Made by a program: the position numbers and the translations under genes. DNA of 62,905 bases, counting the filler, from Rhabdomonas costata (lineage: Eukaryota), in NCBI GenBank assembly GCA_019059605.1. It is 45 parts of 45 records of this genome, joined end to end, with 100 filler letters (N's around TTAATTAATTAA, not from the genome) between each part and the next. Parts side by side here need not be neighbours in the genome. Positions count along the whole stretch, not along the records: positions 15,404 to 16,704 come from JAHMHO010020104.1; 44 more parts are not named here. One strand, written 5' to 3'. Positions 1,556-62,905 of the stretch are shown piece by piece (position 1 is the first letter of the stretch; the number at the start of each line of letters is the position of its first letter). A model generated the notes under the pieces. The model was not told where the DNA came from. It worked only from the letters and a program-made list of their open reading frames with translations, and searched no databases.

Positions 1556-1987
1556 GAGGAGGAGAAGATGTTCATGAACGTGGGCGTGGGGTCCGATGTT
1601 ACTCTCAAGGTGTGTGAAAAACGTGTGGGCATTGTTCACATCCCCGTATGTCTGTTGGTGCACTTGAGTGTTCAGGAGGTCTGTTCAGGGTTCAGTGAAC
1701 TGTGCAAATAGGGCTGCCGGATGCAATTTCTTTGCTACTGCTTCTCGTTAGCCAGCGATATTTGCTGAACGGGTGCTTCCTAGGAACTCGCGGTGATGAT
1801 CAAGGACATCGTGGGGTTCAAGGGGGAGATTGTATGGAACACCGCCATGCCGGACGGCACCCCCCGAAAGCTCCTGGACGTGCACCGGCTGACTGAGCTG
1901 GGGTGGACCGCGAAGACGTCTCTTCCAGACGCTATCCGGCTGTCTTACCAATGGTTCCTGGACAACTGGAAGGACGCCAGGAAGTAA
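1556..1987 (+). CDS. GFUS: GDP-L-fucose synthase, last two exons (1556-1609, 1784-1987)
   Basis: A GT-AG intron (1610-1783) joins in frame EEEKMFMNVGVGSDVTLK|ELAVMIKDIVGFKGEIVWNTAMPDGTPRKLLDVHRLTELGW. NVGxGxD and PDGTPRKLLD are family motifs. Ends in TAA. Confidence 0.93.
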
Positions 1988-4230: not shown

Positions 4231-5406
4231 GTGGGCAGCAAGACCTGCTCCTCACGCAGCGTGGCGGCGATGCAGGCCGGGGCGCGGTCCCAGGCCAGGC
4301 TGGCCCTGCTGCGTGAGGAGCAGGTCTTGCTGCCCACTCTTCATCCTCTTACTTAGTCACACATGCACACAAACTACGTTCTTCTCAAGGGATTGTTCCG
4401 GTGGAGGTCTTTTATTCCTGCAGCGGGATTTCAAATGCTCTCCCGCTACCAGGCCGCTTCTCGGGGCCCGGATCACCCCTTTGCTGGCGGGCGGAGGTTC
4501 TTGGGAAATCTCAATGATGCATTAAACCGCGGTTCTAAGGAACTCGAATCCTCGCCACCACCACCACCATCGACAACCCCTGACACGGCCTTCAACGCAT
4601 TGTGCCTCCATCCCACCACACATGGCACCTGGATTCTGCAGGAGCTGCTGTTCTGCGTGCAAGTTACGGAGCTCGGGTTTGCGGAGGACCGGGAGCGTGC
4701 GGAGCTGGCTACGGAGTCTCGCGTGCAGCAGCAGAGGCCCGCGCTTTTTTTTTGGCTGTGCACGCCTTCTTTGATTTCGCTGTGCTGCATCTCTTTTGAC
4801 TGACTCAACTGAGCCACAATAAGAAAGCACAGCTCGCAGACCCTAGCGTCTCGGGCCTCCTATGTGGGCCACCTGCGGCTTCGGTGCTGGCAGTTGCCAT
4901 GGTCCAATTTTTAGATGGGTTCAGTAACAGTGGGAGTGTGGTTTGGGCAGCGTCGCCCCGCTTTGCTTCTGCCATGACCAGTGCCCAAGTGCAAGACGTC
5001 TTGCATATACATCGTGATGGATGAAGATTCACAAAGAAGGCTGACAGGAAATTCTTTGAAAAAGAAAGAGGTTAACGAAGGATGCGTTTGCCTCACTCCA
5101 CCGAAAGTTGTTGTACCCTGCAACTCTCACGCCGGTCCCTACCGTCCAGTCTTCATCCTTCTTTATCTTTGGAGCTGGTCTTCGCTGAACCCTACCGTGA
5201 ATTCGGACCTTCAGTAAAATCCTGTGGCACTGACCTGTGAGGTGGGGTGGGACTCCTGGCTGCGTTTGTCTGTTCCGCCGTCTTCCTTGGCGGGGTGGGA
5301 TGTGCCATTCAGGTGCCTGGGCTGGCTTGCCAGCTGTCGCGCTCTGGAGGCGCGGAGAGGAGAGCTGCTCGCCCTGGAGACCGAGCAGCGCAAGGCCCTG
5401 GAGATG
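4231..5406 (+). CDS. Exons of an uncharacterised E/R-rich coiled-coil protein (partial)
   Basis: AG/GT-bounded GC-rich blocks encode ELGFAEDRERAELATESR and ALEARRGELLALETEQRKALEM. Exon phases are not fully reconciled. Confidence 0.4.
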
Positions 5407-7571: not shown

Positions 7572-8220
7572 ATCCTCTCTGGGTTAGTCGTCACCACCAT
7601 GTCCGCCCCAGCGGCCACAGCGGCCACAGTCGCGTTCCACACGCTCATCCCCAAGCCCTAAAGACAGCGAAACAACTTAAGAATGGAGGGAGAGTTCGGC
7701 TGACAATGATGGGAATGAGTTGGCCATTCGATTCGTTTCGTTGCTTGGGTGTTGGGGCATGCTGTCTCATCCGCTTTGTGGCCGAACCTTAATAGTAACC
7801 ACCCCCAGGTTCGTGCATCCCTGTGCCTTCATCTTGACAGCGAACGTGAAGATCAACCCCTCAAACCCAACTTCCTGCCGCAGAACCAGTACCAGGAAGT
7901 ACTTCGACAGCGTGGCGGGAGTGCGGTCGCCCAGAACCCGCGGAAACGCGATGTGAGCGGTCATCACACCACCCTGCACGAACCATGAACCAGCAGAAGC
8001 AACTAATGAGGCCGTTGGCGGAAGTTAGCGGTCTAGCAATGGCCCTGAAGCAAGAGTTGGGTGAATTCACGCACCATGCCCGCCTGAAACGCAGCACGGT
8101 ACGGCAGCAACTCCACGGCGTCCAGGCGGGCGCGGTCAACATTCAGCACCGGGGCTCCGTGATGGGAGTCTGCTGAGGTATCCCCGTGGCCAGGAAAGTG
8201 CTTCCCCACAGCTATCACTC
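7572..8220 (-). CDS. GH3 beta-N-acetylhexosaminidase (NagZ-like), three exons, partial
   Basis: [14 protein letters not shown] signature, then [33 protein letters not shown] and AVAAGADM. One GT-AG intron and one GC-AG intron (7658-7826). Confidence 0.9.
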
Positions 8221-9152
8221 CTGAGCACACCACAAGAAACAGATCGAATCATCAGTTTTTTCAGTGGCACCTATTGCGACGACTACCAGAAGGTGGCCAC
8301 NNNNNNNNNNNNNNNNNNNNNNNNNNNNNNNNNNNNNNNNNNNNTTAATTAATTAANNNNNNNNNNNNNNNNNNNNNNNNNNNNNNNNNNNNNNNNNNNN
8401 CAGCCCTCGCAGAGCATCGCGGTGCCCTGGACGTACCGCAGCGGGTGGTTAGAGGAGCACCGTAGGAACTGGGCCACCACGGGAGCAGGAAGGGGATAGT
8501 CAGCCTCTGCAGGACGAAACGGAATCCATTACACTCAAAATGAATTCCGTTTCGGGATGCCACTGGTCGCACCAACCTCGAAATACGATGGCGAATACGA
8601 TGGCGAGGACAAAATCGGATGAGCAAACGCTAGTTCATTGCGCTCTCCTTTTGTTTTGTGTTCTTCTCCCAACCTTTTTTCGAAGCCGTGCAGACGTTCT
8701 GCTTCAGTGTTCGCTGAATGCTTCTGCTTTGATGCAAACATACTGGTGCAGTTGAATTTCAATGGCGTGTGGGTCTTTAAAAAAGCACAAGAAATCACAT
8801 CACAAAGGGGGTTTGTTGGCTACTGCTGGAGCGTTGGGACGGGGCTCTCCCGTCCGGGGATCATGCTAAGGAGTCCAAAAAAGCCCTGCCATATCCTGCC
8901 CGGCTTCCTCTGCCGCGTCGATACCTGCGTGAGCACTCTTCCCCAGTCTCCCTTCTGTTTATCGTCCGCAGTATGCTTCAGCCTTGTTCTTCAGCTGGTA
9001 AGCTGATAAAGCACCTGCTACCTGCGGCACCCCGCGGACCGAACATGGCAATTTAACAATTCGTAAACGGTGCTTTCAGAAAGGCTCGTTAGCGCCCCAA
9101 AATAAACTCCACTTCCCCGTTGTAGTGGGGACAATTGGAGGGGATGTTCACC

Positions 9153-11202: not shown

Positions 11203-12395
11203 GTTTGTGGGTTTTCCCGTGTCTTGAGGACCACGACGCGCTGTCTTACTTTGAGCCTGGGATGCTGGTGACGACGTACGACTTCCGAGGGGCCAGTGGG
11301 GACGTCCGGACCCTCTGCGGGGATGTCTTGAGCGCAAGAGAAGGGGCCTGGGTGTGGGTGTTCTTGAGGGAGGGCGCTTTGGGCGCGGTCACGGAGCTGG
11401 TGTCTGAAGACCCTATGAGGGCTGCTATGGTGAAGGCTCTGGACTCTTGGGCAAGGGCTGGGCAGCAGGTGCATGCCTTGCATCTCCCTGGCACTGCATT
11501 TGATGCGGAGCGGGATCCCAGTGGAGGCTTCACCATCGTTAACCGCCACTACAGAGAGCAGAGGTGTGCGATGCACTCTACCTTCCCGTATCAGTGTGTT
11601 GATTTTGGTCAGCCCCACCACGTGTCTCCCTTCGCCATTGACACGCGTGGCATGATAAGAATAGGTTATCACAGAACACCAGAGACCCCCCCCCGGCACG
11701 GGTTGCTCTAGATTTCCCAAAAGCAAAGGGGAATAAACAAAGCTGGAATGTTACAAGCATTTTGTGAAGACACTGCAGGCCTGGCTTCTGTCCTTCCGTC
11801 CTTGTCTTGACTTGTGCAAAGATATGAGGCGCACAAAAAGTTAAACCACCGCCTCCATCCGACTGTTGTGGAGCTGTATGCTGGGATCTTGGTCATCCTT
11901 TCTTTCAACACAAGCAAGTGCTACTTAGAATTAGCGGCACACACATAAATCGTGAGTGAAGGTAGGGGTAACTTCCTGTGAGAGTATACCGTGTCCTCGG
12001 AGGATCCGTGAGGAGGGTGGCAGCGGCAGCCGGATGGACTTGTATGCTTCAGGGCCTCAGGGTGGATAATTGGTGTGTATTTTTTTTTCAAACTTGGGGC
12101 GCATGCGCTTCATCTTTTCAGGTTTCTGCTCTTGCGCGTGCCTTCCGGGACTATCTTTACCATCGAGAACTCCGCAGAGACTTTTCTGCACTGGCCCGCT
12201 GCCCTTCTTGGCGTCGAGGAGGTGTACTTCCCGCCGTTCTCCAGGTTCATGGTGAAGGCGGTCTGTCAGGGAGCTCTGGGCGAGCCCGACCGAGTCACCC
12301 TGGAGTTTCGCGGGTCCCACTCCTATGCCGCCTTGATGTGCGGGATGCCGCTGGACCATAAAGCCGTGGTTTGCCACTGCGTTTTTGTGTTTTGA
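11203..12395 (+). CDS. ADP-ribosyltransferase-like (R-S-E clade) domain protein, two exons (to 11563; from 12122), partial
   Basis: FEPGMLVTTYDFRGAS ... GTIFTIE ... EEVYFPPFSRFMV follow the ART order FxSTS / GTxFxI / ExEVLFPP. In-frame phase-2 GT-AG intron at 11564-12121. Confidence 0.6.
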
Positions 12396-12954
12396 TGGAG
12401 CCGGGACCCTTTGGGGCTTTGCGTATCTCGGCAGTACTTGAGGGCAATGGCAAGTGTTCTTGCCTCCCTGCGATCCTGTCCATCCGGCTGCCGCTGCCAC
12501 CCCNNNNNNNNNNNNNNNNNNNNNNNNNNNNNNNNNNNNNNNNNNNNTTAATTAATTAANNNNNNNNNNNNNNNNNNNNNNNNNNNNNNNNNNNNNNNNN
12601 NNNGGGTTTTGTTCACTACCAAATGCTGCAGCGCGCTTGCCCAGCTCCCGGACTTTCACAGCGCGCTGCAGCATTTGGTAGTGAATGAAGTCCTCAAAAC
12701 TCACCTGTGTGAGTGGGTGGGTGTGCTTTCCAGGCGAACGAGTGAACAGAAGGAGCTTGTAATTGCTCTAAACTACAAGAGCGATGCACCTTAAGCCCGT
12801 AAAGGACCGGAAAAAGCTCACGCTGGCAACTGGAAATGGAGGTAGCTTCTTTGCTCACGGCGGAGCTGTTCAGGCGGAAGAGACGGTACAGGGTGGCACA
12901 GGGAGCGAGGGAGAGGGAGAGTGGGGCGTGGAGACGAAGACAGGAGGGACAGAC

Positions 12955-13669
12955 CAGCCCATCTCCATCTCGGTCCATCTGGCGGAAAACATCGTTCAGC
13001 TGGTCTTCGCTGAGCTCTGTGGATGGGAAGGGCAAAATGACTGTCACAGTGGGCCACAAGAAAGGACAGCGAAGGTAAGAGTGAGTCCCATCGCCTTCGC
13101 CGAAGCTGAGACACACAGAGAAATAGAGAGAGAGAGAGAGAGAGAGCAATCTTGGTTCAACAAAGCGAAGTGTGTGTAGATGTCTCCGTCCCAACTCCAG
13201 CAATCGCAATTCACAGAGGCTGAGGACCCGAGAAATGAAGCAGACAAGTCGGAAAAAGATTAAAATGGCATGCCCGTGAGCGAGGGACGTCTTGGGAAAT
13301 CTTGCACACACTCCAAAGCAACTGTCGCTGGCCGCAAGAAGCGCTGCATCTGGAACCACAGCGGGATTCATTCGTTCATTCACATCATTGCGGGTCGGAA
13401 TCTCAACCCGCAGCACGCAGCCACGGCAACGAGTCGGACGCTGGACTGGATGGTGCACAAGGGGCAAGTAACGTGTGAAGGTGCGCTTTGTGCTGGAGCG
13501 TACCGACGAAGATGGTGCGGTATAGGCGGTCCACTTCCAGGATGGTCACAAAGCCGTCGCCGTCAATGTCAATGGCGCGGAACTTCTTGCGGAAGTTCTC
13601 CAGCTGCTCCTCCGTGAGATGCTCACGTTGGGACTCCGGGGTGTAGTCCCGGGAACTCGACGCGATGCC
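12955..13669 (-). CDS. EF-hand calcium-binding protein, exons 13669-13504 and 13016-12955
   Basis: FRAIDIDGDGFVTILE and FRQMDRDGDGL loops, joined in frame by a GT-AG intron. Confidence 0.85.
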
Positions 13670-14314
13670 CTGCACGCGATAGAGAAGTCCTCCGGCAACC
13701 CACACAGGGCCCATACTCATGGGACATAAACCTTGGAGCTATGTATCGCTCCAATCCACAGTGACTGAGAAAGGATATGCGATATTACGAGAGAATCGCG
13801 AAAAATAAGACTCATCCTATCTTGATGATCTGAACCCTATGGCGACGGGGGGGGGGTCACAAACATCGCACATGCGACAATCGAATATGCAAAGAACAAC
13901 CACCNNNNNNNNNNNNNNNNNNNNNNNNNNNNNNNNNNNNNNNNNNNNTTAATTAATTAANNNNNNNNNNNNNNNNNNNNNNNNNNNNNNNNNNNNNNNN
14001 NNNNGGTGCAGTCCCGTCGGTGGAAAATGTCACCGGAATTTGTGAGAAGCAGTGCAGTAGCCTTGACCGCGTCTGCCTTTTTCTTATGTGCAAATGGTTA
14101 GTGCCACATGCAGTCACGCCCATGCCGTTTTTTGCAGTCAGAAATTTGGGCCATTTTCGTTTGCTTGTCGAGGAAAGAAAAGGCACCAGCGCCGGCAGTG
14201 GTCACTACCGACGGTGGTCTGCTCGTCCTTTGTTGAACGTTTTGAGTCCATCATACTCCTTTTGCTCGGGTTGTTAAAGGTCCTGCCCAACTCTTGCGCT
14301 TATTATTTGCGTAG

Positions 14315-15143
14315 GCCCAGTTGGCGGCTCACGTTCTTGGAAAACTGGCGAGAATGGGGGGTGCTCTTGCCACCGACGTGGTTGAATCTGAGGCGAAGCG
14401 GGCCCTGGAGTGGCTGATTTCCGGAAAAGACGTGATGAATAGAAGGTCATTTTCCCCAGACTAACTAAGATTCTTCAGACAAACAAGCCAAGAACTGGAC
14501 TCTTTCCTCCTGCTTTTGCGTTGCTTTTTCATTTCTGTCCCTTAGCTTTGTGAAGCCCTTGGGGCTCGTCAACATTTGCGTCACTATCGTTTTCCTTTTT
14601 GGCTCGGGGACTTGTGTGATTGTCTGTTGTCGCGTGTGTACGTTTGTGCGATGAAAAGACGGATCGCTTTCATAATTTGCGATCGTTATAAAACTGATGA
14701 ATGCGAACGCCATCGTCTTTTCAGGTGTAAGGAGCAATTCCTAATCCAAAAATGCTCGAAATGAAATTCTCAGAACGAGCGAATTCATAGCATCCTCGAT
14801 TGGGAATTGCATGTTCAAAACGCCACGGCAAAACGTCAAAAACCAACAAAGGGGTTAATTTAGACCGGGGGGGGGGCGTTTTTATAGTGCCATCGCATCT
14901 CCATTTTGCTTTCTGCATTGCAGATACTGTGCGCTGCTCATCTTGCGGGAGCTCACCCAGAGCGTGCCTTCTCTGCTGTTTCAGCGGGTGGAGCAGTTTC
15001 TTGAGGCCGTCTGGACAGCTCTACGGGACCCCAGCCTGGCCATGCGAGAGGCTGCGGTGTTGGCCCTGCGAGCCTACCTTGTAGTGATCGCGGACCGCGA
15101 CAGCCCGCTACGCCCCAGCCTCTACGACCGAATCTATCACAAC
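14315..15143 (+). CDS. TOR: Target of rapamycin kinase, N-terminal HEAT region (exons 14315-14445, 14924-15143)
   Basis: The spliced product LGKLARMGGALATDVVESEAKRALEWL...RRYCALLILREL...VWTALRDPSLAMREAAVLALRAYL matches the TOR N-terminus (mTOR EVKRALEWL...AAVLVLREL...DPKQAIREGAVAALRA). Confidence 0.9.
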
Positions 15144-15637
15144 GTAAAAACGTTTCTCCATTCCCTTCATGATTAGTGCCTGTTTTCGCAGGGGATAGCC
15201 TGTTTTATGATGATTTTGATGATATGCGCCCTACAACACTTCATGGAAGGTTTGCCCAAAAATTTATGATGAAGTGTTGTAGGGCGCATATCACCAAACC
15301 AACNNNNNNNNNNNNNNNNNNNNNNNNNNNNNNNNNNNNNNNNNNNNTTAATTAATTAANNNNNNNNNNNNNNNNNNNNNNNNNNNNNNNNNNNNNNNNN
15401 NNNGTGGTGTGGTTTAACAATATATTATTGTGTCCTTTCTGCGACCAGAAACTGATCGACATCCATATTGGGAGCATTTCTTTTTCCGAAAGTGCGTTTG
15501 TCTTGCTGGCTGAAGCTCGCCCGTCATATCTGGAGGGTGCCGTTCCGAAACTCACCTTCCTTTGGAAGAAACGACCTTTTTCAGAGGAATCTTTTTCTGG
15601 AATAGTTCTCCTTATGTTCTGTTGTCATTCACTCTCC

Positions 15638-16539
15638 ACGGCAGAATAATCATTTGCAAACAAGATCGTCTTGCTGTTTTATTCTGTTTTGTGGTGACGG
15701 AGTTTAAGAAGCTTATTTCTGAGCTGGACCGTTTGGAGGGCTTTATGGCCCAACTGGAGGCGGGTACGTTGGAGCCCGACCAGCAGCTCCACGGACTGGG
15801 CTGCGCCCAGGCTGCCGCAGAGGAGCTGCGGACACGACTTCCTAAGTACCGAGCCAAGGCCGAGGAGACGGACCCTGAGAAACGCGTTTTTGGGGATGCC
15901 ATGGTGGCCAAAGTCCGCGATGCCGTGACCCGCTTAGAGGCCAAGGCGCACCGTGGGGTGGATATACAACAGGGCATTGACATTTCACGGAAGTGGAGAG
16001 ATTATCCTTTTGCGGGTTTTCTTCAGTATTAGTTGTTTATACTTGTTTTATTCTGCTGTTTCTTCAAAATTCTGTGACATTCTGTGAATAATACTATTAC
16101 TCACAATGCAAGTCCTGCTATGGTTTATCCTATTTTTATGCTACAGGTCCAGAAAACAAGATTCTTCCTGTTTACGGGTTTGCACAGTAGTCCTCTTGTA
16201 GGGTTTATCTTGCCGCGCTGTAAGTAGTTTCACGTGGTAGGCGCCTTATTCGGTTAGTTGTTTCCTGAGCTGTTCGTGTCCTAGCCAAGACTGCCGTCAG
16301 TCTGTATATCCTTCCCGGATCTGAGATTGCGGTGCACTTTTGTCCTGGTTTGATTTGAGCATGTGGAGAGTGAGCTTCCGCGGTGGGCAGAGCGGGTGCT
16401 GGCGGAGGCGGAGCCCGTGGTGCGCGCCCGGCAACAGGAGGAGGACCGTCGGAGGGCTGCGGAGACGGAGCAGAGGCAGGCTGAGGAGGAGGCGCGGCGG
16501 CTGGAGGCGCAGCGGAAGGCTGACGCGGAGGATTTGGAG
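15638..16539 (+). CDS. Uncharacterised helical/coiled-coil protein, 5' exons; the ATG is split by a non-conventional intron
   Basis: MVTEFKKLISELDRLEG...VTRLEAK / HVESELPRWAERV...EDLE followed by a GT donor. Coding-like GC3 bias. Confidence 0.7.
15639..15691 (+). other. Euglenid-type non-conventional intron (53 nt)
   Basis: No GT/AG ends. CAG at +4..+6 and CTG at -8..-6. cagaataa pairs with ttattctg, with an inner caaga/tcttg stem. Excision yields an in-frame ATG. Confidence 0.7.
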
Positions 16540-17259
16540 GTTTGTGTTAGTGGTGATCTGTTATGGGTCTTCTCAGTGTGTGGTAGTGAGGTGGCTTGCG
16601 CGCTGTTGATCGTACACTGTGGTTGCGGGTTACATGGGAAGGGTGGACAAGGGAGGGATGAATCATGCTGAGACGGGCATTTGGCACTGGCACGTTGCCG
16701 GAGGNNNNNNNNNNNNNNNNNNNNNNNNNNNNNNNNNNNNNNNNNNNNTTAATTAATTAANNNNNNNNNNNNNNNNNNNNNNNNNNNNNNNNNNNNNNNN
16801 NNNNGGGGTGTGGGGCGCTGGATGATACAACTGGTGCGAGTCGTCTTGGAGCTCTGACTATTCGATGACACGCATTCTGCACTGTGCACTGTGTGCCTAG
16901 TTCATGTGTGTCCATGTGTGTGTTGGGCGCATTGGTTGTTGCCTGGCGGGCCGTTGGCGACCGATGACGACTGACGGGGTCACGCACTGTTGGCCACATT
17001 TGATTTTTCCAGTGGCAACCCGTGCTGCTCATTGCTGCTCAGGTTTCTGAGGTTCCTCGTTCTTTGGGTGGCTGGGACCTTCTTGAAACGCACCAGAGGT
17101 ATTCGTGCTTGCCACCCTAATGTTCTGGTACGTGCGCGCGCGCGTGTGCATTTGTGTGATGTACACGTCACCCTTCTGGAACCCTTCAGTGACGTCCAAA
17201 ATCTCCGTCTATGAATCCATCTGAGCCACACGACTGTCGCCTATCCTACCACAAAAAAG

Positions 17260-18244: not shown

Positions 18245-19506
18245 TATGCCGCCGAAGAGGGGCCTTTTCGGATATCTCCACGTCACGCCAAGGGCAATGC
18301 TTCAAGAAACAAGCGTTCCCCCATTCCTTCGGAATACCATATTGTCTGTTTGGTCGTTGACCATTGTTGCTTTTTGGCTGAAGAAAACCTGTGCAAGTTA
18401 ATTGAGGATTGGCTTGTTCCAATGGCCCCTCATTACGTCAATATCAAGCTGATGTTCACCCACAAGTTTCGCGCGGGTGCGACTAAGTGCCGGCTGGAGC
18501 CATTTCTGAAGCTAAAAAACACGTTCCAGTACGAGGGGTTTTTTGAGCGTCTGTATCACGACTTGGATGAGACTAATTGGACAGAAGCGCTCGAGGTCAT
18601 CGATGAGGAGCTGGCCACAATCGGTTCGTCTTCTAGGGAGGCATACCTCGGAGATTTTAAGGTCAAACCTGTGTCCATTTCTTGCATTACGGATCTCTGC
18701 TTGCCTGTGCTTGGTGAAGGCATTGTGACCGCTATTGATCGGATGCCCCAGAGCGACGGCTTGTTCTCTCATTATGTTGTTTTTCGGGGGACCCCGCAAA
18801 TCTTTGTAATTGACGGCAAGTCTTACCGCGCATCTGTGGTTAAGTTCGATCACAACGGAGATGCCAGGGCTCTGGATGCTGCTGTCGATATTTGCCTGGA
18901 TCCATCAGCTAACTACGTTCCCAGTCGACGTCAAGAATTAAATCCTCAGATGGACAGTTTTTCACCCATTCTCGGCGAAACGCATTCAGAGCTTGTTCAG
19001 CAACAGACCCACAAGCTGCTTGAGGAGGCCCGCCGTGCGCGCCTCAGTTGCTGCGTTGCCATGACTTCATTACTTTCTCGCTTTCGCAACAACCTTGTGG
19101 TAAACAAGGACCGTCTGGTGCAGTACCAACCCATTTTGCAGCGCATCGCTTGCGGTATTCTTGAAATAGTCCATGCTGTCTCAACACCCTTTCCCATTGC
19201 ACGTCGGCTTAGTACCGCTGTGGCGAGCGTTTTGGGTGAGATGAACATGTTTGCGACGGTGCCGTTTTCTGGTTCATGGTTCGCGGCTTTTCAGCGCCTG
19301 CAACACGCTCGAGCCATTCACCGTCGTGTCTTAGCAGCAGCTCGCGATGTGCGTTTCGGTCAGAAGACTGAGGAGGCGGTTAGCAAAATGCTGTTGTCCA
19401 GTGATCTTCTTGGAATTGGTATCCGTGTTCTGCGCACGTCTGCCTCTCAGGTCGAGCCCTGGCTCACAGTTGTCGAATACGTTTCCCCTCCTTCAACAAA
19501 CCCCCC
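18245..19506 (+). CDS. Long intronless ORF of unknown function (about 420 codons, 3' end open)
   Basis: One frame is open from just after a TAA at 18242-18244 to the contig end. No recognisable motif. Confidence 0.65.
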
Positions 19507-40254: not shown

Positions 40255-40512
40255 TTACTCCACCTGAATGACCTCCTCCTCCAAGACACTGGGCTTGGAC
40301 TCCTGCTCAGGTGCCGGGTCTTCCTCGAGAAGCTTCTGCAGGAGCTGGAACATCGCGGTGGTGTCCAGGGGCTTGCCCAGCACGGCGGCCATCCCAGCCT
40401 CCAGGCACGCTCGAGTGCCCTCGGCGTCACAGTTGGCGGTGATCCCCACCACAGGAACGGCAGCGTACCGGGGGTCGGCCTTGAGCCGCCTCGTGGCCTC
40501 ACACCCGCCCAA
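40255..40512 (-). CDS. Response-regulator receiver domain, C-terminal half (probably a hybrid histidine kinase)
   Basis: GCEATRRLK...VPVVGITAN...CLEAGMAAVLGKP matches the eukaryotic hybrid-kinase receiver consensus. Confidence 0.88.
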   Translation of the reverse strand: MGGCEATRRLKADPRYAAVPVVGITANCDAEGTRACLEAGMAAVLGKPLDTTAMFQLLQKLLEEDPAPEQESKPSVLEEEVIQVE

Positions 40513-46220: not shown

Positions 46221-47518
46221 ATGGACTTCGTGACGATGCCGAAAACAGTGTGGCAGTTTGGAGGGAGTGAAGAGCCGATCAACGAGATCTTGACGGTCAC
46301 GGATCGAGCTACGAAGATGGTTGTATTGATCCCGTGTCGGAACACCGACACAGCAGCGGACATTGCAAGTTTGTTTTGGTGGGAGGTGGTTCGTTATCAC
46401 GGGTTGCCGAGAAGCATTGTAAGCGACAGAGACGCGATCTTTATGTCGATCTTTTGGAAGGAGCTGATGAGTTTCTTGGATGTGAACTTGAGAAGATCGT
46501 CGCCGTACCACCCCCAGACAAACGGTCAAGCGGAGCGGACGAATCAGACGATGAAGCAAGTGTTCAGGACTTTGATGGTTGCACACCCAGGGAAGGGGTG
46601 GCAAGAGCTTGTGGTGTTGGCAGAAATCGCAATTAACAGTGCGCCGATCGCTAACACGGAGTACAGTCCGTTCTACTTGAATTACGGGTATCACCCAGTG
46701 TTTTGGTGGGATCTTCCGGAGACCCCGGAGCCGTCAGAAGGTGCCAGGAGAGAGCCGGTGAGACTCCAAGTGAAGAAGATGAAGTACGAGTGGCAGCAGG
46801 TGCGCGCCGCGTTTGAGAAGGAGAAGGAAAGAGCGGCAGCGTATGCGAACAGAAGGAGAGCAGATTACAAGTTTGTTGTAGGGCAGGACGTGCTGATCAA
46901 CACAAAGAAGCATTACAAAGGCAGGTTTGGTGAGCCAGCAGGGTTGTTGATGCCAAAGGCAGTAGGGCCGTTCACGATTGTGAAGAAGATTACAGACACC
47001 ACGTTCGTGTTGGACATCCCGAAAGAGCTCAGTGGAAGAGCTCACCCGGTCTTTCATTCGAGCGATCTTATTCCGTACGAGACCAGAGTGTTGGATCCCG
47101 TGGGAATGCTACCGGAAGACGAGGAAGATGACGGTGAAGGTGATGGAAGTGACGGCCAAGGTCAAGGTGGAGATGGAACGGAGGACAGAAGTGGAGCTGG
47201 TCGAGAAGCGGACAGACCAGTTTTGGTTGGAGAGAAGAAGAACAGTTTCGCGGTGGTAGTTCAGTGGAGAGCCCAGTTTCGGAGGAGCTGGATGCATCAG
47301 ATGAAGAAGAAGGTGGAGATCCAGAAGCTGTAGAGAGTTTGCCGATTCCAGCAAGACCGTTGGAGTACGACATGAGTGTGGAGGATGAAGAGATTGCAGA
47401 TGAGGAATACCCTGATGAGGAGATCGAAGCGGATGATCCGGGACAGTATCACGAACATCCCGAGCCAAGTGTGGAGCAGATCAAGGGAGTGTCGCCAGAA
47501 TTGCAGAAGTGGCTAGAT
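46221..47518 (+). mobile_element. Ty3/Gypsy LTR retrotransposon integrase (rve core + GPY/F) with an acidic tail
   Basis: MDFVT, TVTDRATKMV, HGLPRSIVSDRD, YHPQTNGQAERTN (intact D-D-E), SPFYLNYG, GPFTI and HPVFHSS. Confidence 0.95.
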
Positions 47519-50440: not shown

Positions 50441-51705
50441 GAGGTGAGGTGGCAGTTGCCTGCGCCGGACAAAGGGGAGTTCCTACGAAGGGTGAGGGTG
50501 GACCTTCCCACGCTGCACCTCGAGGACCTCCCCGACATCCCCTACACCCCGCCCGAGGTGCTGTTGGACTTTAATCGCGTCAGCACAGGTATGCTTTTGC
50601 GTGTGAGTGGAGTGGGTGGGTGGGCTGTACATGTCTGTAACTGATTTCTGTTCTGATGCCTCTGCCACTGACGGACTTCTCTGTGGCATACTTCATCTCC
50701 GTCAGCTGTCATTTATCCGTTTATCCCAGCTGTCAATCAGAAGGGGTTGTTCAGGAGAATGCGGGTCGCGGGGTAGTATGAGGATGGGCTGCTTTTCTCT
50801 CTCCCTGTGCGCCTCTGCAGCTGTGCAGCCTCAGCCGTGGCTGGGGTTTGTCCCTGTGGCCGAGGCCCGCACTAACCCGGCGACGGCACTGCCGATCCCC
50901 ACAGTTGTGGTGGCTCACCAGCTCGCCCCAGGTCCCTGGCGGGGCGGAGTGTGTGAGTGTATGAGTGAGTTTGGGGGGTGGGCGTGAAACGGTCGTCTCT
51001 TTGTTGTCTTTGCTGTCTAAATGGTATCACCCCCCAATACCCTTCACATATTGGAATCCCAGCGAACATAATTGCGCTTTCTAGTCGAGCCTTTTATCAC
51101 CTCCGACTTTTGCCCTTTTATCTCCATGACTCAATTTATTTCTTTTCAATCTTTGTACTGTCCTGCAGGAGCTCCAGATCCCCAGAGCTCTGTCCCTTGG
51201 GAACCGTACCTGTTGCCTTCCTTGTGCATTTTGCGCAGCCTAATGTGGTTACAATCCTCAGGGCAAAAGCCATCTCCGCTCTGAGCCTACATCTCTGCCG
51301 TCGTGCTCCCAACTAACGCCCTCCCAAACCCGCATCGAGAGAACCCCAGAGCTGACTCCCGCGACTTCCTTCTGAGCTTCATCATACGGAACCCTCACTC
51401 AAACGCGCCCAGTCTTATGCTTAAGCTGTGGAGGTGAAGCGTTACATACGCACGGAGGGCATGGCCAATTTATAGCCAGCCAGGCTCTCATCTAGACGCC
51501 CCCGTTGTTTTTTCAGGGGGCCCTGCCGAGGCAGCGGGAATGGCTGAGGGCGACGAGATTATCGCCCTTAATGGGATCCGCATCGAGACCTTGCCCGCTT
51601 TTGTCGCCGCAGTGGCGCGCCACGGGCGGGTGGTGGGGCGCAAGGTTACCTTCACTTGCAAAAGGCCCACGGGGATCCCAACCAACCCCAACCTCACCAA
51701 CACCC
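50441..51705 (+). CDS. PDZ-domain protein, three exons, partial
   Basis: PWLGF...VVVAHQLAP|GGPAEAAGMAEGDEIIALNG...KVTFTCKR, with in-frame phase-1 GT-AG introns. Confidence 0.85.
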
Positions 51706-57400: not shown

Positions 57401-57670
57401 NNNNNACCTCGGGATTGCAGGAAGCGTTGTGAGCTATAACTCCCAGGCTAACACGATGATGTCACTGCTTGTTTTCCCCGCGCTTCCTGTCTGTGCGATG
57501 ATCTTTTTTCCGCCCTCTTACTTGAGCACTGGCCCGCAAGACGTCACTCCAGTGGCTACATGCGTAGCTGCAGGGGTTTTTTCGCGTATAGGGGAGGACT
57601 GAGAAGGGGGGGTCAGGGTGAATCCGTTTTTGTTTTAGCGAAGTCTGTCAAGTGGGGTTCCCTGGTTCAG

Positions 57671-58705: not shown

Positions 58706-58842
58706 NNNNNNNNNNNNNNNNNNNNNNNNNNNNNNNNNNNNNNNNNNNNTTAATTAATTAANNNNNNNNNNNNNNNNNNNNNNNNNNNNNNNNNNNNNNN
58801 NNNNNTGTTGGTTGTCGAATAACTTGTTCAATTTATGGTATG

Positions 58843-59791
58843 AACAATAGTACATACCATAAATTGAACAAGTTATTCGAGAACCAACATCATTACACCA
58901 TATTCCATTATTTATATATACATTATTAGAATTACCACCAGTTATCATAATATTTTCAGAATATACTTGACCTTTAGAATGAACATATAAACCAGTAATT
59001 GTAGTAATAGATGCATATACATTTAACATATTAATAACTAAAGCATCCGGACTATTACAAACTTCAACACCAACACAACAATTTATAATCGCACATTGTT
59101 CAATAAAACTTAATTTTTGACTAACCATAGAAGAAGTAGCAGTTGCAGCACCATCAAAAAATATACCTCGTGCACCATTTAAATAAGCACCAACAATTGT
59201 TAATTTATCCAAAGTACACCATTTACCAATAACAAAAATATCTAAATTTGGATTTTCTGCGACGATAATAGTATTGCCGATAGAGCCTTCAGAACGGATA
59301 GTACATCCGTTCGGAATAATTAATGGATTTTTTTCAACATATGTACCTGGATAAATTGTAAAAATAATATCTTCTTTACCATTGTTAGCAGCTAATGCTT
59401 CTGTTAATGTTTTATAATCATATTGACTTTCAGCCATATTAGAAATATAAATTTCACAAATTTGTCTAGATTTTACTCGAATAAATGCAGTTGAACTATT
59501 AATTGCATCTGTATTATCAGGTGTATACATAATTGTTTTTGTTGTCGGATCTAATAATAAATTAGGTGTCTGTAATGTAGGAGTTGGGACGAAATTAGCA
59601 ATTATAATTTTTACGGTTGCACTATCATCGTCAGACAATGTATCTGTAAAATTAATATAAATATTATCATCGACTGTTTCAATATATAATACAGGATTAT
59701 TAGGTAAGGCTTCAATTAATGCAGTCTGTAATTGTCCAATGTCCAAACCATTAGGAAAATTAGTTGATATAGATTCACATAATGTAAACAT
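58843..59791 (-). CDS. Pectin-lyase-fold (beta-helix) protein of giant-virus type, 3' truncated
   Basis: Intronless, very AT-rich and I/N/T-rich. DYKTLTEAL...IYPGTYVE is a beta-helix cap, and the N-terminal module reads FPNGLDIGQLQ. Confidence 0.8.
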
Positions 59792-59931
59792 TTATATTTA
59801 TAAATCTATATTATTTTATGAGAACTTAGGATACATTGGATAAATAGACTACATTTATACTGTAAATTTATATTTTACAGTGAATAATAACATGAAAAAC
59901 GAAATATAAATTATTAAAAATAATAACAAAA

Positions 59932-59960
59932 TTATATATTTTTGATCTAAAAATATATAA
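59932..59960 (-). terminator. AT-rich palindrome directly after a stop codon (Mimiviridae-type 3'-end hairpin)
   Basis: ttatatattttt-gatct-aaaaatatataa: a perfect 12-bp stem beginning 3 nt after the TGA at 59965-59963. Confidence 0.65.
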
Positions 59961-59962
59961 AT

Positions 59963-60103
59963 TCATATATTATTTAGTCGTACACATTCTGTACAAGCGA
60001 CTTGAAAACCATTTTTATAACCAATGAGATATCCACATGTATATCCTTTAGCATAACTACTAATTTTTTTTTGTGTCATTTCTTTACCTAGATCTTCAAA
60101 AAA
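59963..60103 (-). CDS. C-terminal 46 aa of an upstream AT-rich gene
   Basis: FFEDLGKEMTQKKISSYAKGYTCGYLIGYKNGFQVACTECVRLNNI*, open to the contig edge. Confidence 0.6.
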   Translation of the reverse strand, partial: FFEDLGKEMTQKKISSYAKGYTCGYLIGYKNGFQVACTECVRLNNI

Positions 60104-61605
60104 ATNNNNNNNNNNNNNNNNNNNNNNNNNNNNNNNNNNNNNNNNNNNNTTAATTAATTAANNNNNNNNNNNNNNNNNNNNNNNNNNNNNNNNNNNNNNN
60201 NNNNNTGTTGGGGGGGTTTTGTGGGTTTTTATGGCCACAGCGAAAAATTCTCTAACCGATGGGGGACATTCACTGCATAAATGTCGTTCCGTTCTTTTTT
60301 GCGAATGATTTTGCTTTTTGTTATCTCGGCGACTGCGATCATTTTTGATGGTTCTACTCTTCTCTTCCCTTTTTTCTTTCCTGTCTGCGTTTGATGAGAA
60401 GTCCACGGTCCGTGAACTGCATCAAGTCCCCGCCCCTCCCCTGCCACCAAAAGGCAAAATTAAGTTGTGCACTATCGCAAAGGGCAGTGCTACGGACACT
60501 TACAGCCACAGTCCGCTAAAATGTTCAATGAATACACACAATTTTGAGAAAAAAGAACCAAAAAGAACATAACTTGCGCTTGTTGTTGTGTGGATACCTT
60601 TTTGCAGGCACAAAAAAGTCCTTGGTTTGTGTACGCACATGTGTATTCCAGTTGAAATAGCAGCTCCCTGGGACCACTGAAACCGCATATGCAACCACTT
60701 CTTTCGAATTCCACTATCCCGTTTCCTTCTTTCCTTGAAAAAGGGACTTGACTCAACGTTGCAAAACCAAACCATATAAACATTCCTAAACTATATATAT
60801 GCATCATTTCCAGTACTGGTATTCGCTAAAACAGCCATCCAGCAAGTGCCCCGTACACTTCACAGAGAAATTTCTGGACCCTTGCAAACAGCCTACGCCG
60901 CGTTAAGGGAGTTTCGCGTATTTCGGCCACACAGTCAGCTAATCCTAAAGTGCATGCTGAGGCCCAAGCGTCGCAGTTCGCCTCAATGGCAATGCGAACG
61001 ATCTTCATTTAGCGCGGGACACCTTGAAAATAAGCTCAAGTGCAAGAAGCTCAGAAGGGGGGGGGGCAAAGGAACACGGCATCGTCCCAAATAACCAAGT
61101 TTCGCACAGTGCACTCGAAAAATAAAAAGGTTCGAGAACGGAAAACACGTCGTACGCAAATGCAAAGGCTCCTCTTCTCCCGATTCAAGAGAGAGCCACA
61201 CTATCCCGCACACGATCGCTCAGGCCGCAAGCCCACCCTGAGATCCCCTCAAACGTACTCACGCACGTTTTTCGCTCGCGCACGCCTACGAGTCGAAGAT
61301 CACAAAAGAAAAAGAGAAAAGGAAGAGGAAGAGGCGGAACCCCCATCTGGTCACCGATGCAGCTGTATGAAAATGCACGGACTATGAAAGAAAAGAGAAA
61401 AGAGAAAAGCACGTTGTGAGTTTTGGAGAGTGAGTGGCTTCAAGGGTGTTCCCAGGGTTGCCAGGAAGAGGAAGAACTATATAGTAACTGAAGTGCAGTC
61501 GAGCANNNNNNNNNNNNNNNNNNNNNNNNNNNNNNNNNNNNNNNNNNNNTTAATTAATTAANNNNNNNNNNNNNNNNNNNNNNNNNNNNNNNNNNNNNNN
61601 NNNNN

Positions 61606-62794: not shown

Positions 62795-62905
62795 CTTTTC
62801 TTTTTTGCAAACAGCAGAAGCTGTAACTTTTATATGTCAACATAATTTTAATATATAAAATTATGTTGACATATAAAAGTTACAGCTTCTGCTGTTTGCA
62901 AAAAA

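What the first reader, a model, noticed from the sequence alone, without database searches (positions are those of the whole stretch)
15638..15693. Non-conventional stem-loop intron whose removal creates the start codon
Seen: the coding-like frame starting at about 15691 has no nearby AG acceptor, and its first in-frame ATG (15745) lies well inside it. The 53 nt at 15639-15691 fold back on themselves (cagaataa/ttattctg plus caaga/tcttg), with CAG at +4..+6 and CTG at -8..-6. Joining A15638 to TG15692-15693 gives in-frame ATG GTG ACG GAG. Known: this geometry is the hallmark of euglenid non-conventional introns, whose excision mechanism is unresolved. Inference: the host is a euglenid, and translation of this gene depends on precise non-canonical splicing, making it a minimal natural reporter. 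Caveat: the downstream exon starts with T, whereas a purine is usual.
Basis: partly seen in the sequence, partly recalled or inferred. Interest (0 to 1): 0.8.

Follow-up and report, generated by a model that had tools for sequence, protein, structure and literature searches.

The report
Hairpin mini-intron at a start codon
A 53-base hairpin sits exactly where a euglenid gene should have its start codon, and cutting it out by the euglenid-specific "nonconventional" splicing rule would rebuild an ATG there; this is a neat example of a known intron type, still unproven without RNA data.

Summary
Bases 15639-15691 carry CAG at +4..+6 and CTG at -8..-6 inside a perfect 8-bp stem. Joining A15638 to TG15692-93 gives an in-frame ATG.

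The exon encodes the N-terminus of a family whose full-length euglenid members carry a PUB domain. 9 of 10 homologs begin right here with MTEFKK-like sequence, and the window has GTG (15694-96) where they have Met. A hairpin this good that also makes a junction ATG arose in 2 of 20,000 shuffles. One conserved exon elsewhere in the window is 90% identical to a Rhabdomonas costata protein, so the host is a euglenid.

No RNA test was possible.

Three points weaken the claim:
- An in-frame ATG at 15614 would also join the reading frame after excision, so the junction ATG need not be the initiator.
- The downstream exon starts with T. The rule-perfect 54-nt cut makes no ATG.
- The same CAG follows a pyrimidine tract and could be a spliced-leader acceptor.

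The cis code and synthetic 50-bp introns were published in 2025, so the reporter idea is superseded.

Verdict: probable nonconventional intron (about 0.6), a new member of a known kind, of modest interest.

The parts
15404..16704 (.). The single 1301-bp contig that carries the finding. The window is a chain of 45 such contigs joined by artificial linkers.
   Evidence: N44-TTAATTAATTAA-N44 linkers about every 1.4 kb; 45 contigs of 1287-1303 bp.
15583..15605 (+). Three AG dinucleotides (15583-84, 15585-86, 15604-05). These are the only candidate spliced-leader acceptors that would leave the putative intron intact. All lie upstream of ATG 15614.
   Evidence: AG positions. Their use is inferred, not shown.
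15614..15616 (+). Upstream ATG. In unspliced RNA it opens an 11-codon uORF that ends at a TAA inside the hairpin. After removal of the 53 nt it is in frame with the gene, 8 codons ahead of the junction ATG.
15639..15691 (+). Putative 53-nt nonconventional intron: CGG-CAG ... CTG-TTTTG, with no GT/AG borders.
   Evidence: The rule comes from PMC12501133.
15642..15649 (+). 5' arm CAGAATAA, with CAG at +4..+6. The same CAG follows a pyrimidine-rich tract (15604-15641) and is the rival spliced-leader acceptor.
   Evidence: I1. Outron consensus of pyrimidine tract plus CAG from PMC11170887, section 9.
15679..15686 (+). 3' arm TTATTCTG, with CTG at -8..-6 of the 53-nt version.
   Evidence: I1.
15661..15673 (+).
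   Evidence: Read directly. RNAfold's MFE structure uses a slightly different inner pairing.
15692..15696 (+). TG (15692-93), which completes the ATG with A15638, followed by GTG (15694-96). That GTG aligns with the initiator Met of the homologs.
15694..15957 (+). Coding exon 1, starting VTEFKKLISELDRLEGF... Its 3' end is uncertain (15957, 15966 or 15990). It is the N-terminal coiled-coil part of a protein family whose full-length euglenid members end in a PUB domain.
   Evidence: GC by codon position 0.72/0.40/0.69.
15745..15747 (+). First in-frame ATG of the unspliced frame (residue 18). It falls at a non-conserved column, inside the region that is conserved with homologs.
15958..16359 (+). 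Second intron, borders ambiguous. Candidates are GT15958...AG16359, GT15991...AG16371, or a nonconventional-like 15967-16353 (CAG/CTG, 7-bp stem with one G-U).
16372..16539 (+). Coding exon 2 (minimal extent), followed by a GT donor at 16540.
   Evidence: aligns to residues 81-128 of the Entosiphon homolog, E 1e-5.

Best explanation
Bases 15639-15691 are a 53-nt euglenid nonconventional intron at the very 5' end of the coding region. The gene encodes the N-terminal coiled-coil part of a euglenozoan protein whose full-length relatives carry a PUB domain.

In the pre-mRNA the CAG at +4..+6 and the CTG at -8..-6 pair within an 8-bp helix. The helix is extended by CCAC/GUGG pairing of the flanks, so the two cut sites (A15638|C15639 and G15691|U15692) lie opposite each other. 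Excision at the 3-nt / 5-nt spacings joins A15638 to UG15692-93. This makes an AUG one codon upstream of the GUG that occupies the homologs' initiator position. The spliced mRNA then encodes either M-VTEFKK... or, if AUG 15614 is used, an 8-residue longer form.

Shown: the sequence geometry, the position of the family N-terminus, the lack of any other usable ATG, the rarity by chance, and the euglenid host.

Inferred: that excision happens, that it uses the N5 rather than the N6 acceptor spacing, and which AUG initiates.
For: 1. The geometry fits the genetically defined rule: N3-CAG, CTG-N5, and pairing beyond the motif (rule read in PMC12501133). It also fits the older CA/TG consensus at +4,+5 / -7,-6 (PMC3935182, passages).

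2. 9 of 10 homologs start within residues 1-4 of the alignment. Their sequences begin MTEFKK (4), MTEFKR, MSEFKR, MEFKQ, MTEYKK and MATALRQ; one has an 18-residue extension. The best hit aligns without gaps from its Met1 to the window's V at 15694. The homologs include Entosiphon, Euglena longa (annotated as a complete ORF) and Diplonema.

3. The codons 15694-15744 look coding. By my own count from the sequence, 11 of 17 third positions are G/C. The upstream frame shows no codon periodicity (0.45/0.39/0.47, against 0.72/0.40/0.69 in the exon). So translation must begin at about 15694. Yet the only ATGs on this side are at 15614 and 15745.

4. Chance: 2 of 20,000 shuffles give a registered hairpin of 8 bp or more that makes a junction ATG next to the N-terminus.

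5. No GT...AG pair can create an ATG here.

6. Size is no obstacle: synthetic 50-bp nonconventional introns splice.

7. The context fold pairs the two junctions directly.

8. The host is a euglenid: a conserved exon is 90% identical to an R. costata protein and 74% to an E. gracilis transcript product.
Against: - There is no RNA evidence of any kind.
- The downstream exon starts with T, while the rule prefers a purine. In knock-ins a T was tolerated in one intron context and not in another.
- The rule-perfect alternative (N6, exon starting with G15693, 54 nt) yields no ATG.
- The nearest named relative of the host, R. costata, has mostly GT-AG introns and only seven putative nonconventional ones (PMC8219788, section 7). 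The one other gene I could check in the window has GT-AG introns. The prior is therefore lower than in Euglena.
- CAG 15642-44 follows a pyrimidine tract, like the outron consensus in E. gracilis. Trans-splicing can precede nonconventional splicing (PMC6221363, section 7), and that would destroy the intron.
- The hairpin's own stability is unremarkable (z -2.3, and -1.5 in context).
- The homologs have M directly before T, so the spliced product would carry one extra residue.
Confidence: 0.6

Rival explanations
1. There is no cis-intron. CAG 15642-44 with its upstream pyrimidine tract is the spliced-leader (or another conventional) acceptor, and the hairpin is a coincidence in the 5' leader. 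The gene then starts at a near-cognate GUG (15691 or 15694) or at AUG 15745. Alternatively it is a start-less pseudogene copy, or carries an A-to-G assembly error at 15694.
For: The tract 15604-15641 is pyrimidine-rich and ends in CAG, like the outron 3' consensus reported for E. gracilis (PMC11170887, section 9). GTG sits exactly where the homologs have ATG, one transition away. Conventional introns dominate in the nearest named relative and in the one other gene checked here. No protein of this gene exists in the searched collections, which fits low or no expression.
Against: The rule-conforming hairpin that makes an in-frame ATG next to the N-terminus would have to be chance: 2 of 20,000 shuffles. 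Starting at AUG 15745 would drop 17 conserved residues. The exon shows no other defect over 99 codons. I know of no report of GUG initiation in euglenids (own knowledge, not searched).
Confidence: 0.2
2. The hairpin is a nonconventional intron, but it is cut at the rule-perfect N6 spacing (15639-15692, 54 nt, downstream exon starting with G15693). That leaves the leader in the frame that has no ATG. Translation would then start at AUG 15745 or a GUG, or this would be a non-productive isoform alongside the 53-nt form.
For: The published rule allows N5-6 and prefers a purine as the first exon base. G15693 satisfies that; T15692 does not.
Against: It produces no ATG for the conserved N-terminus. 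N6 was less efficient than N5 in knock-ins, with a 30-40% drop in transcript. The exact ATG formation by the N5 cut would then be an unexplained coincidence.
Confidence: 0.07
3. A conventional mini-intron (GT at 15621 or 15624 to AG 15663-64, 41-44 nt) links ATG 15614 to the exon's own frame. This would give a hydrophobic 12-13-residue N-terminal extension ahead of VTEFKK.
For: Both GT...AG pairs are in frame by my own reading of the positions. Short introns tend to be GT-AG in E. gracilis (abstract of PMC11170887).
Against: The acceptor is preceded by an A-rich stretch with no pyrimidine tract. About one in three random GT/AG pairs is in frame. The codons that would be retained (15665-15693) are AT-rich at third positions, unlike exons here (for the hairpin: 0.28/0.44/0.35). 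Of the 10 homologs, 9 have no N-terminal extension; the one that has (P0008, 18 residues) does not resemble this one.
Confidence: 0.05
4. The true first coding exon lies off the contig (upstream of 15404) and joins near 15691 by some other intron. The protein would then have a lineage-specific N-terminal extension.
For: One of 10 homologs (P0008) has an 18-residue extension. The contig offers only 290 nt upstream.
Against: No AG lies in 15665-15700. The local 5' partner arm would be coincidental. 9 of 10 homologs start here.
Confidence: 0.05

Closest known systems
Nonconventional introns of euglenids (Euglena gracilis / E. agilis; rule 5'-N3CDG-/-CH'GN5-6|R, PMC12501133)
   Same: No GT/AG borders. 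CAG at +4..+6 pairs with CTG at -8..-6, with a 3-nt and a 5-nt spacer and further base pairs inside the motif. The hairpin brings both junctions together. The size is close to the 50-bp synthetic introns that splice. The junction is non-slidable, because there is no direct repeat at the borders.
   Different: The first base of the downstream exon is T instead of a purine. The E. gracilis flanking preferences (CCAGG / CCTG) are matched only in the CAG/CTG core. The host is nearer to Rhabdomonas, where such introns are few. The intron sits inside the (would-be) start codon. Excision has not been observed.
Putative nonconventional introns of Rhabdomonas costata (PMC8219788)
   Same: The host lineage is the closest named one (90% identity on one exon). 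That paper reports seven transcript-supported stem-loop introns with non-GT/AG borders.
   Different: Their sequences and logo are in a figure and supplements that I could not see, so no direct comparison was made. None is described as touching a start codon in the text I read.
Start codons interrupted by spliceosomal introns in other eukaryotes (own knowledge; only incidental organellar examples surfaced)
   Same: The ATG exists only in the mature mRNA, so translation of the full protein depends on accurate splicing.
   Different: Here the intron would be removed by the non-spliceosomal, structure-guided euglenid pathway, and an in-frame upstream ATG may take over initiation.
Spliced-leader trans-splice acceptor (outron 3' end) of euglenids
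   Same: A pyrimidine-rich tract followed by CAG at 15642-44 matches the described outron consensus.
   Different: Use of this site would leave the conserved N-terminus without any AUG. It does not explain the complementary 3' arm or the ATG-forming register.

Membership tests
Euglenid nonconventional intron | Borders are not GT/GC...AG | tested here: met
   The intron starts CG and ends TG.
Euglenid nonconventional intron | C-D-G at +4..+6 and a complementary C-H'-G before the 3' spacer (CAG/CTG) | tested here: met
   CAG 15642-44 and CTG 15684-86. Rule from PMC12501133.
Euglenid nonconventional intron | Exactly 3 nt before the 5' motif and 5-6 nt after the 3' motif | tested here: met
   CGG (3 nt) and TTTTG (5 nt) for the ATG-forming junction. 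This register is what defines the proposed junction, so the test is not independent of it.
Euglenid nonconventional intron | Purine as the first base of the downstream exon | tested here: not met
   T15692 for the 53-nt version. It is met (G15693) only by the 54-nt version, which makes no ATG. The rule is a preference: 61.2% of E. agilis nonconventional introns fit the full signature, and a T was tolerated in one of two tested introns.
Euglenid nonconventional intron | Base pairing beyond the motif that brings the two splice sites together | tested here: met
   Perfect 8-bp stem. The context fold also pairs CCAC 15636-39 with GUGG 15691-94. Stability is only moderately above shuffles.
Euglenid nonconventional intron | Actually absent from mature mRNA (and excised, reportedly as a circle) | not testable with these tools
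No transcript-derived protein or contig was found.
Euglenid nonconventional intron | Host is a euglenid (or diplonemid) | tested here: met
   The exon at 1784-1984 is 90% identical to EukProt RCo033816 and 74% to EG_transcript_15012. The RCo prefix denotes R. costata proteins. This rests on one conserved exon and one gene family.
Start codon created by splicing | No genomic ATG at the conserved N-terminus; the junction yields an in-frame ATG | tested here: met
Start codon created by splicing | The junction ATG is the initiator actually used | tested here: inconclusive
   ATG 15614 becomes in-frame 8 codons upstream, and no AG acceptor lies between it and the junction. Which AUG is used needs 5'-end mapping and N-terminal proteomics.
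PUB-domain protein family (PF09409) with MTEFKK N-terminus | PUB domain in the C-terminal part | not testable with these tools
   The contig ends at 16704, before that region. The domain is present in the Entosiphon and E. longa homologs. The window's two exons have no Pfam match.

The most novel reading that the evidence does not exclude
Translation of this gene is gated by nonconventional splicing. The unspliced but already trans-spliced mRNA offers ribosomes only an 11-codon uORF (AUG 15614 to the UAA inside the hairpin) and no start for the conserved N-terminus. Nonconventional excision occurs later than spliceosomal splicing. It converts that uORF AUG, or the newly formed junction AUG, into the start of the main ORF. 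That would be a structure-guided, non-spliceosomal splicing step acting as an on-switch for protein synthesis, in a heterotrophic euglenid lineage where such introns are scarce.
Probability: 0.12. Interest if true: 0.55.

Novelty: new member of a known kind. Interest (0 to 1): 0.3.

Why it matters
If the excision is confirmed, this would be a clean, non-slidable example of a nonconventional intron whose exact cut site can be read from protein output, because one base of error abolishes the start codon or the frame. Three things make it useful:
- It lies in a lineage near Rhabdomonas, where only a handful of such introns are documented.
- It starts the downstream exon with a pyrimidine, so it probes the edge of the published rule.
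- It pits a spliceosomal-looking acceptor (CAG after a pyrimidine tract) against the nonconventional 5' motif on the same three bases, a natural test of how the two systems compete.

It does not open the mechanism question in a new way. Knock-in reporters and synthetic 50-bp introns already exist (PMC12501133).

Tried and rejected
- **RNA evidence.** No whole genome is held.
- **This gene's own protein or transcript.** The search for homologous proteins with the exon-1 peptide found nothing at 'longer' (175-2000 aa; 412 candidates, none scored) or at 'near' (54-174 aa; 8 candidates, none scored). The search for related loci in metagenome contigs matched 555 pattern stretches, none confirmed. 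An exact 27-nt exon stretch gave 0 hits in metagenome contigs.
- **Paralogs or other copies of the hairpin in the window.** None: blastn of the contig against the window's 45 contigs matched only itself.
- **Pfam on the two exons.** 0 families.
- **Rfam on the whole window.** 0 matches at gathering scores.
- **Earlier scan notes.** Nothing by place, words or sequence.
- **A window-wide count of CAG/CTG-registered stems as a test for nonconventional introns.** Uninformative. There were 134 rows with stems of 7 bp or more over both strands (67 per strand), against roughly 36 per strand by my rough hand estimate. 16 plus-strand pairs have 8 bp or more, and several of these are long palindromes at contig ends.
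- **The exon at 15000-15143 as an upstream exon of this gene.** Rejected: it is on a different contig.
- **A 56-nt excision that would give exactly the homologs' M-T-E-F start.** Rejected as unlikely. It needs an 8-nt 3' spacer, and +3 nt abolished splicing in knock-ins.
- **The alternative CGG register of the 5' motif.** Rejected: the flanks do not pair (read).
- **Literature.** 'nonconventional intron' plus 'start codon' gave 2 papers, both irrelevant. 'start codon' plus 'split by an intron' gave 4 papers, none on euglenids. Supplements of the intron papers (intron tables, logos) were closed and may hold comparable cases.

Full report
**What the window is.** The 62,905-base window is not one locus. 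It is 45 contigs of 1287-1303 bp chained by N44-TTAATTAATTAA-N44 linkers. The finding lies on contig 15404-16704. The coding-looking stretch just to its left (to 15143) belongs to another contig and is irrelevant.

**Check of the observation.** All sequence statements hold.
- Bases 15639-15691 (53 nt) read CGG-CAG...CTG-TTTTG.
- CAGAATAA (15642-49) and TTATTCTG (15679-86) are perfectly complementary.
- The inner pair CAAGA/TCTTG is there.
- The only ATGs in 15404-15760 are at 15614 and 15745. AGs lie at 15567, 15583, 15585, 15604, 15643, 15663 and 15701, so none lies in 15665-15700.
- Joining A15638 to TG15692-93 gives an ATG in frame with GTG ACG GAG.
- The hairpin folds at -12.5 kcal/mol, z -2.3, and 6 of 200 shuffles fold as well. 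In a 127-nt context the same helix forms and is extended by CCAC (15636-39) pairing with GUGG (15691-94). That puts the two proposed cut sites opposite each other, but the z-score is only -1.5 (18 of 200).

**What the gene is.** The exon from 15694 translates to VTEFKKLISELDRLEGF... and has no Pfam match.

An exhaustive HMMER search of 1.84 billion representatives gave 10 hits at E of 0.001 or better, the best at 2.4e-11 and 45% identity.
- In 9 of the 10, the match starts at residue 1-4 of the hit. The tenth (P0008) has an 18-residue extension.
- Their N-termini read MTEFKK (4 proteins), MTEFKR, MSEFKR, MEFKQ, MTEYKK and MATALRQ.
- Source names identify Entosiphon sulcatum, Euglena longa (ORF annotated as complete, 331 aa) and Diplonema ambulator. 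The others are unnamed or hypothetical.
- The Entosiphon and E. longa proteins carry a C-terminal PUB domain.
- The best hit aligns without gaps from its Met1 to the window's V encoded by GTG 15694-96.

So the family's N-terminus lies exactly at the 3' edge of the hairpin, and the window has GTG where relatives have ATG.

The 17 codons before ATG 15745 are conserved with the homologs. By my count from the sequence, 11 of 17 have G/C at the third position. GC by codon position is 0.72/0.40/0.69 in exon 1 and 0.89/0.46/0.86 in exon 2. The 231 nt upstream show no periodicity (0.45/0.39/0.47), and the hairpin is AT-rich. Translation therefore has to begin at or just before 15694. ATG 15745 is not a credible start for the conserved protein.

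**Host.** A conserved exon on another contig (1784-1984, the C-terminus of GDP-L-fucose synthase) is 90% identical over all 67 residues to EukProt entry RCo033816, and 74% to EG_transcript_15012. 'RCo' numbers are Rhabdomonas costata proteins (passages of PMC8219788).

The host is thus a euglenid, nearer to Rhabdomonas than to Euglena on this exon, and not identical to the published R. costata protein. That gene's introns in the window are ordinary GT...AG.

In R. costata all 29 complete introns of six marker genes were conventional, and only seven putative nonconventional introns were confirmed (PMC8219788, section 7). The prior for a nonconventional intron is therefore lower here than in E. 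agilis, where 71.8% of introns are of that type (PMC12501133, abstract).

**Fit to the known rule.** Knock-in genetics defined the signature 5'-N3CDG-/-CH'GN5-6|R. It requires pairing beyond the motif, a strict 3-nt 5' spacer, a 5-nt (less well 6-nt) 3' spacer, and a preference for a purine at the first exon base. Synthetic 50-bp introns built on it splice (PMC12501133, Results and Discussion read).
- The 53-nt element meets every item except the purine. The exon would start with T15692. A T was tolerated in one tested intron and not in another.
- The rule-perfect alternative (6-nt spacer, exon starting with G15693, 54 nt) leaves the leader in a frame without any ATG.
- A 56-nt cut would give exactly the homologs' M-T-E-F start. 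It needs an 8-nt spacer, which the knock-ins argue against.
- The junction is non-slidable, because the bases at the borders are not repeated.

**Chance.** I shuffled the 290 nt upstream 20,000 times, preserving dinucleotides and keeping the exon fixed. A registered CAG/CTG hairpin with a stem of 8 bp or more, whose downstream exon starts within -15..+3 nt of codon 15694, appeared in 27 shuffles. It also made a junction-spanning in-frame ATG within five codons in 2. For stems of 6 bp or more the counts were 310 and 21.

The real window holds 16 plus-strand registered stems of 8 bp or more in about 58 kb, several of them long palindromes at contig ends. That gives a similar order of magnitude.

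Even with a low prior for such introns in this lineage, the coincidence of three things favours a real intron. These are the missing ATG at a homolog-defined N-terminus, a rule-conforming hairpin abutting it, and an ATG produced in frame.

**What weakens 'creates the start codon'.**
- After the 53-nt excision, ATG 15614 is in frame 8 codons upstream.
- The only AGs that could accept a spliced leader without destroying the intron (15583, 15585, 15604) lie upstream of that ATG. A trans-spliced mRNA would therefore carry it, and scanning might start there.
- In unspliced RNA the same AUG opens an 11-codon uORF that ends at a TAA inside the hairpin.
- So precise excision is needed for the frame either way, but the junction ATG may be an internal Met.

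**Main rival.** The CAG at 15642-44 is preceded by a pyrimidine-rich tract, the consensus described for E. gracilis outrons and conventional introns (PMC11170887, section 9 part 1). Trans-splicing can precede nonconventional cis-splicing (PMC6221363, abstract and section 7).

If the leader is added at 15645 the intron is destroyed. The mRNA then has no AUG before 15745. That implies GUG initiation, a truncated protein, a dead gene copy, or an A-to-G error at 15694.

Nothing in my data excludes this. It leaves the hairpin/ATG coincidence unexplained.

**Minor rivals.** These are the 54-nt cut, a 41-44-nt GT...AG mini-intron linking ATG 15614 to the exon frame through a poor acceptor, and an upstream exon off the contig.

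**Second intron.** Exon 2 (at least 16372-16539, followed by a GT at 16540) aligns to residues 81-128 of the Entosiphon protein (E 1e-5). The intron between the exons can be drawn in three ways:
- GT15958...AG16359, with a T-rich tract;
- GT15991...AG16371;
- a nonconventional-like 15967-16353, with CAG/CTG, a 7-bp stem including one G-U, a 6-nt spacer and a T-starting exon.

I could not decide between them.

**Comparison and novelty.** This works like, and most likely is, a euglenid nonconventional intron. One preference of the rule (purine) is not met, and excision is untested. Start codons completed by splicing are known elsewhere (own knowledge).

In the searched library no paper couples a nonconventional intron with a start codon: 2 irrelevant hits. 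The large intron tables in closed supplements may well contain such cases.

The 'minimal natural reporter' value is limited now that knock-in reporters and synthetic introns exist.

I rate it a new member of a known kind, with interest about 0.3. My confidence is about 0.6 that the 53 nt are excised as proposed. Given excision, it is roughly even whether the junction ATG or ATG 15614 initiates.

Noticed in passing
whole window; linkers e.g. 15304-15403: The window is 45 contigs of 1287-1303 bp in roughly descending length, joined by N44-TTAATTAATTAA-N44 spacers. Neighbouring 'exons' across a spacer are unrelated.
   Followed up: yes
15675-15686 and 16044-16055: An exact 12-nt direct repeat, TGTTTTATTCTG. 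The second copy lies in the next intron and could also pair with the 5' arm CAGAATAA, giving a 422-nt alternative hairpin (15639-16060) that would skip exon 1.
   Followed up: partly
15958-16371: The second intron of the same gene has ambiguous borders: two possible GT...AG pairs and one nonconventional-like CAG/CTG pair with a 7-bp stem. GTGGAGAG occurs at both 15991 and 16364.
   Followed up: partly
4233-4337; 12018-12501; 12626-12673; 57415-57494; 62809-62899: Inverted repeats lie within about 30 nt of contig ends. The arms are 25, 19, 9, 9 and 39 bp, so three of the five are long. They may be amplification chimeras or assembly artefacts rather than biology.
   Followed up: no
1556-1609 and 1784-1984 (+): Two exons of a GDP-L-fucose synthase gene, 89-90% identical to a Rhabdomonas costata protein, separated by a conventional GT...AG intron (1610-1783).
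   Followed up: yes
14934-15143 (+): A HEAT-repeat-like exon followed by GTAAAA. It reminded me of TOR kinase (recalled resemblance, not tested with any tool).
   Followed up: no
46221-47330 (+): A 370-codon open frame with retroelement integrase core and Tf2-type SH3 domains. The integrase-core matches are below Pfam's cut-off; the SH3_Tf2-1 match is above it.
   Followed up: partly
58806-60105, ORF 58808-59791 (-): An AT-rich contig (GC about 0.37, against about 0.48 elsewhere) with a 328-codon ORF of no convincing family. It may come from another organism in the sample.
   Followed up: no
18245-19504 (+): A 420-codon open frame that fills almost a whole contig, with no Pfam match.
   Followed up: partly
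8036-8248 (-), 13406-13738 (-), 40258-40512 (-), 51438-51704 (+): Further GC3-rich exon-like frames. By eye they look like a glycoside hydrolase family 3 motif, an EF-hand, a response-regulator receiver and a PDZ domain (recognised from memory, not searched).
   Followed up: no
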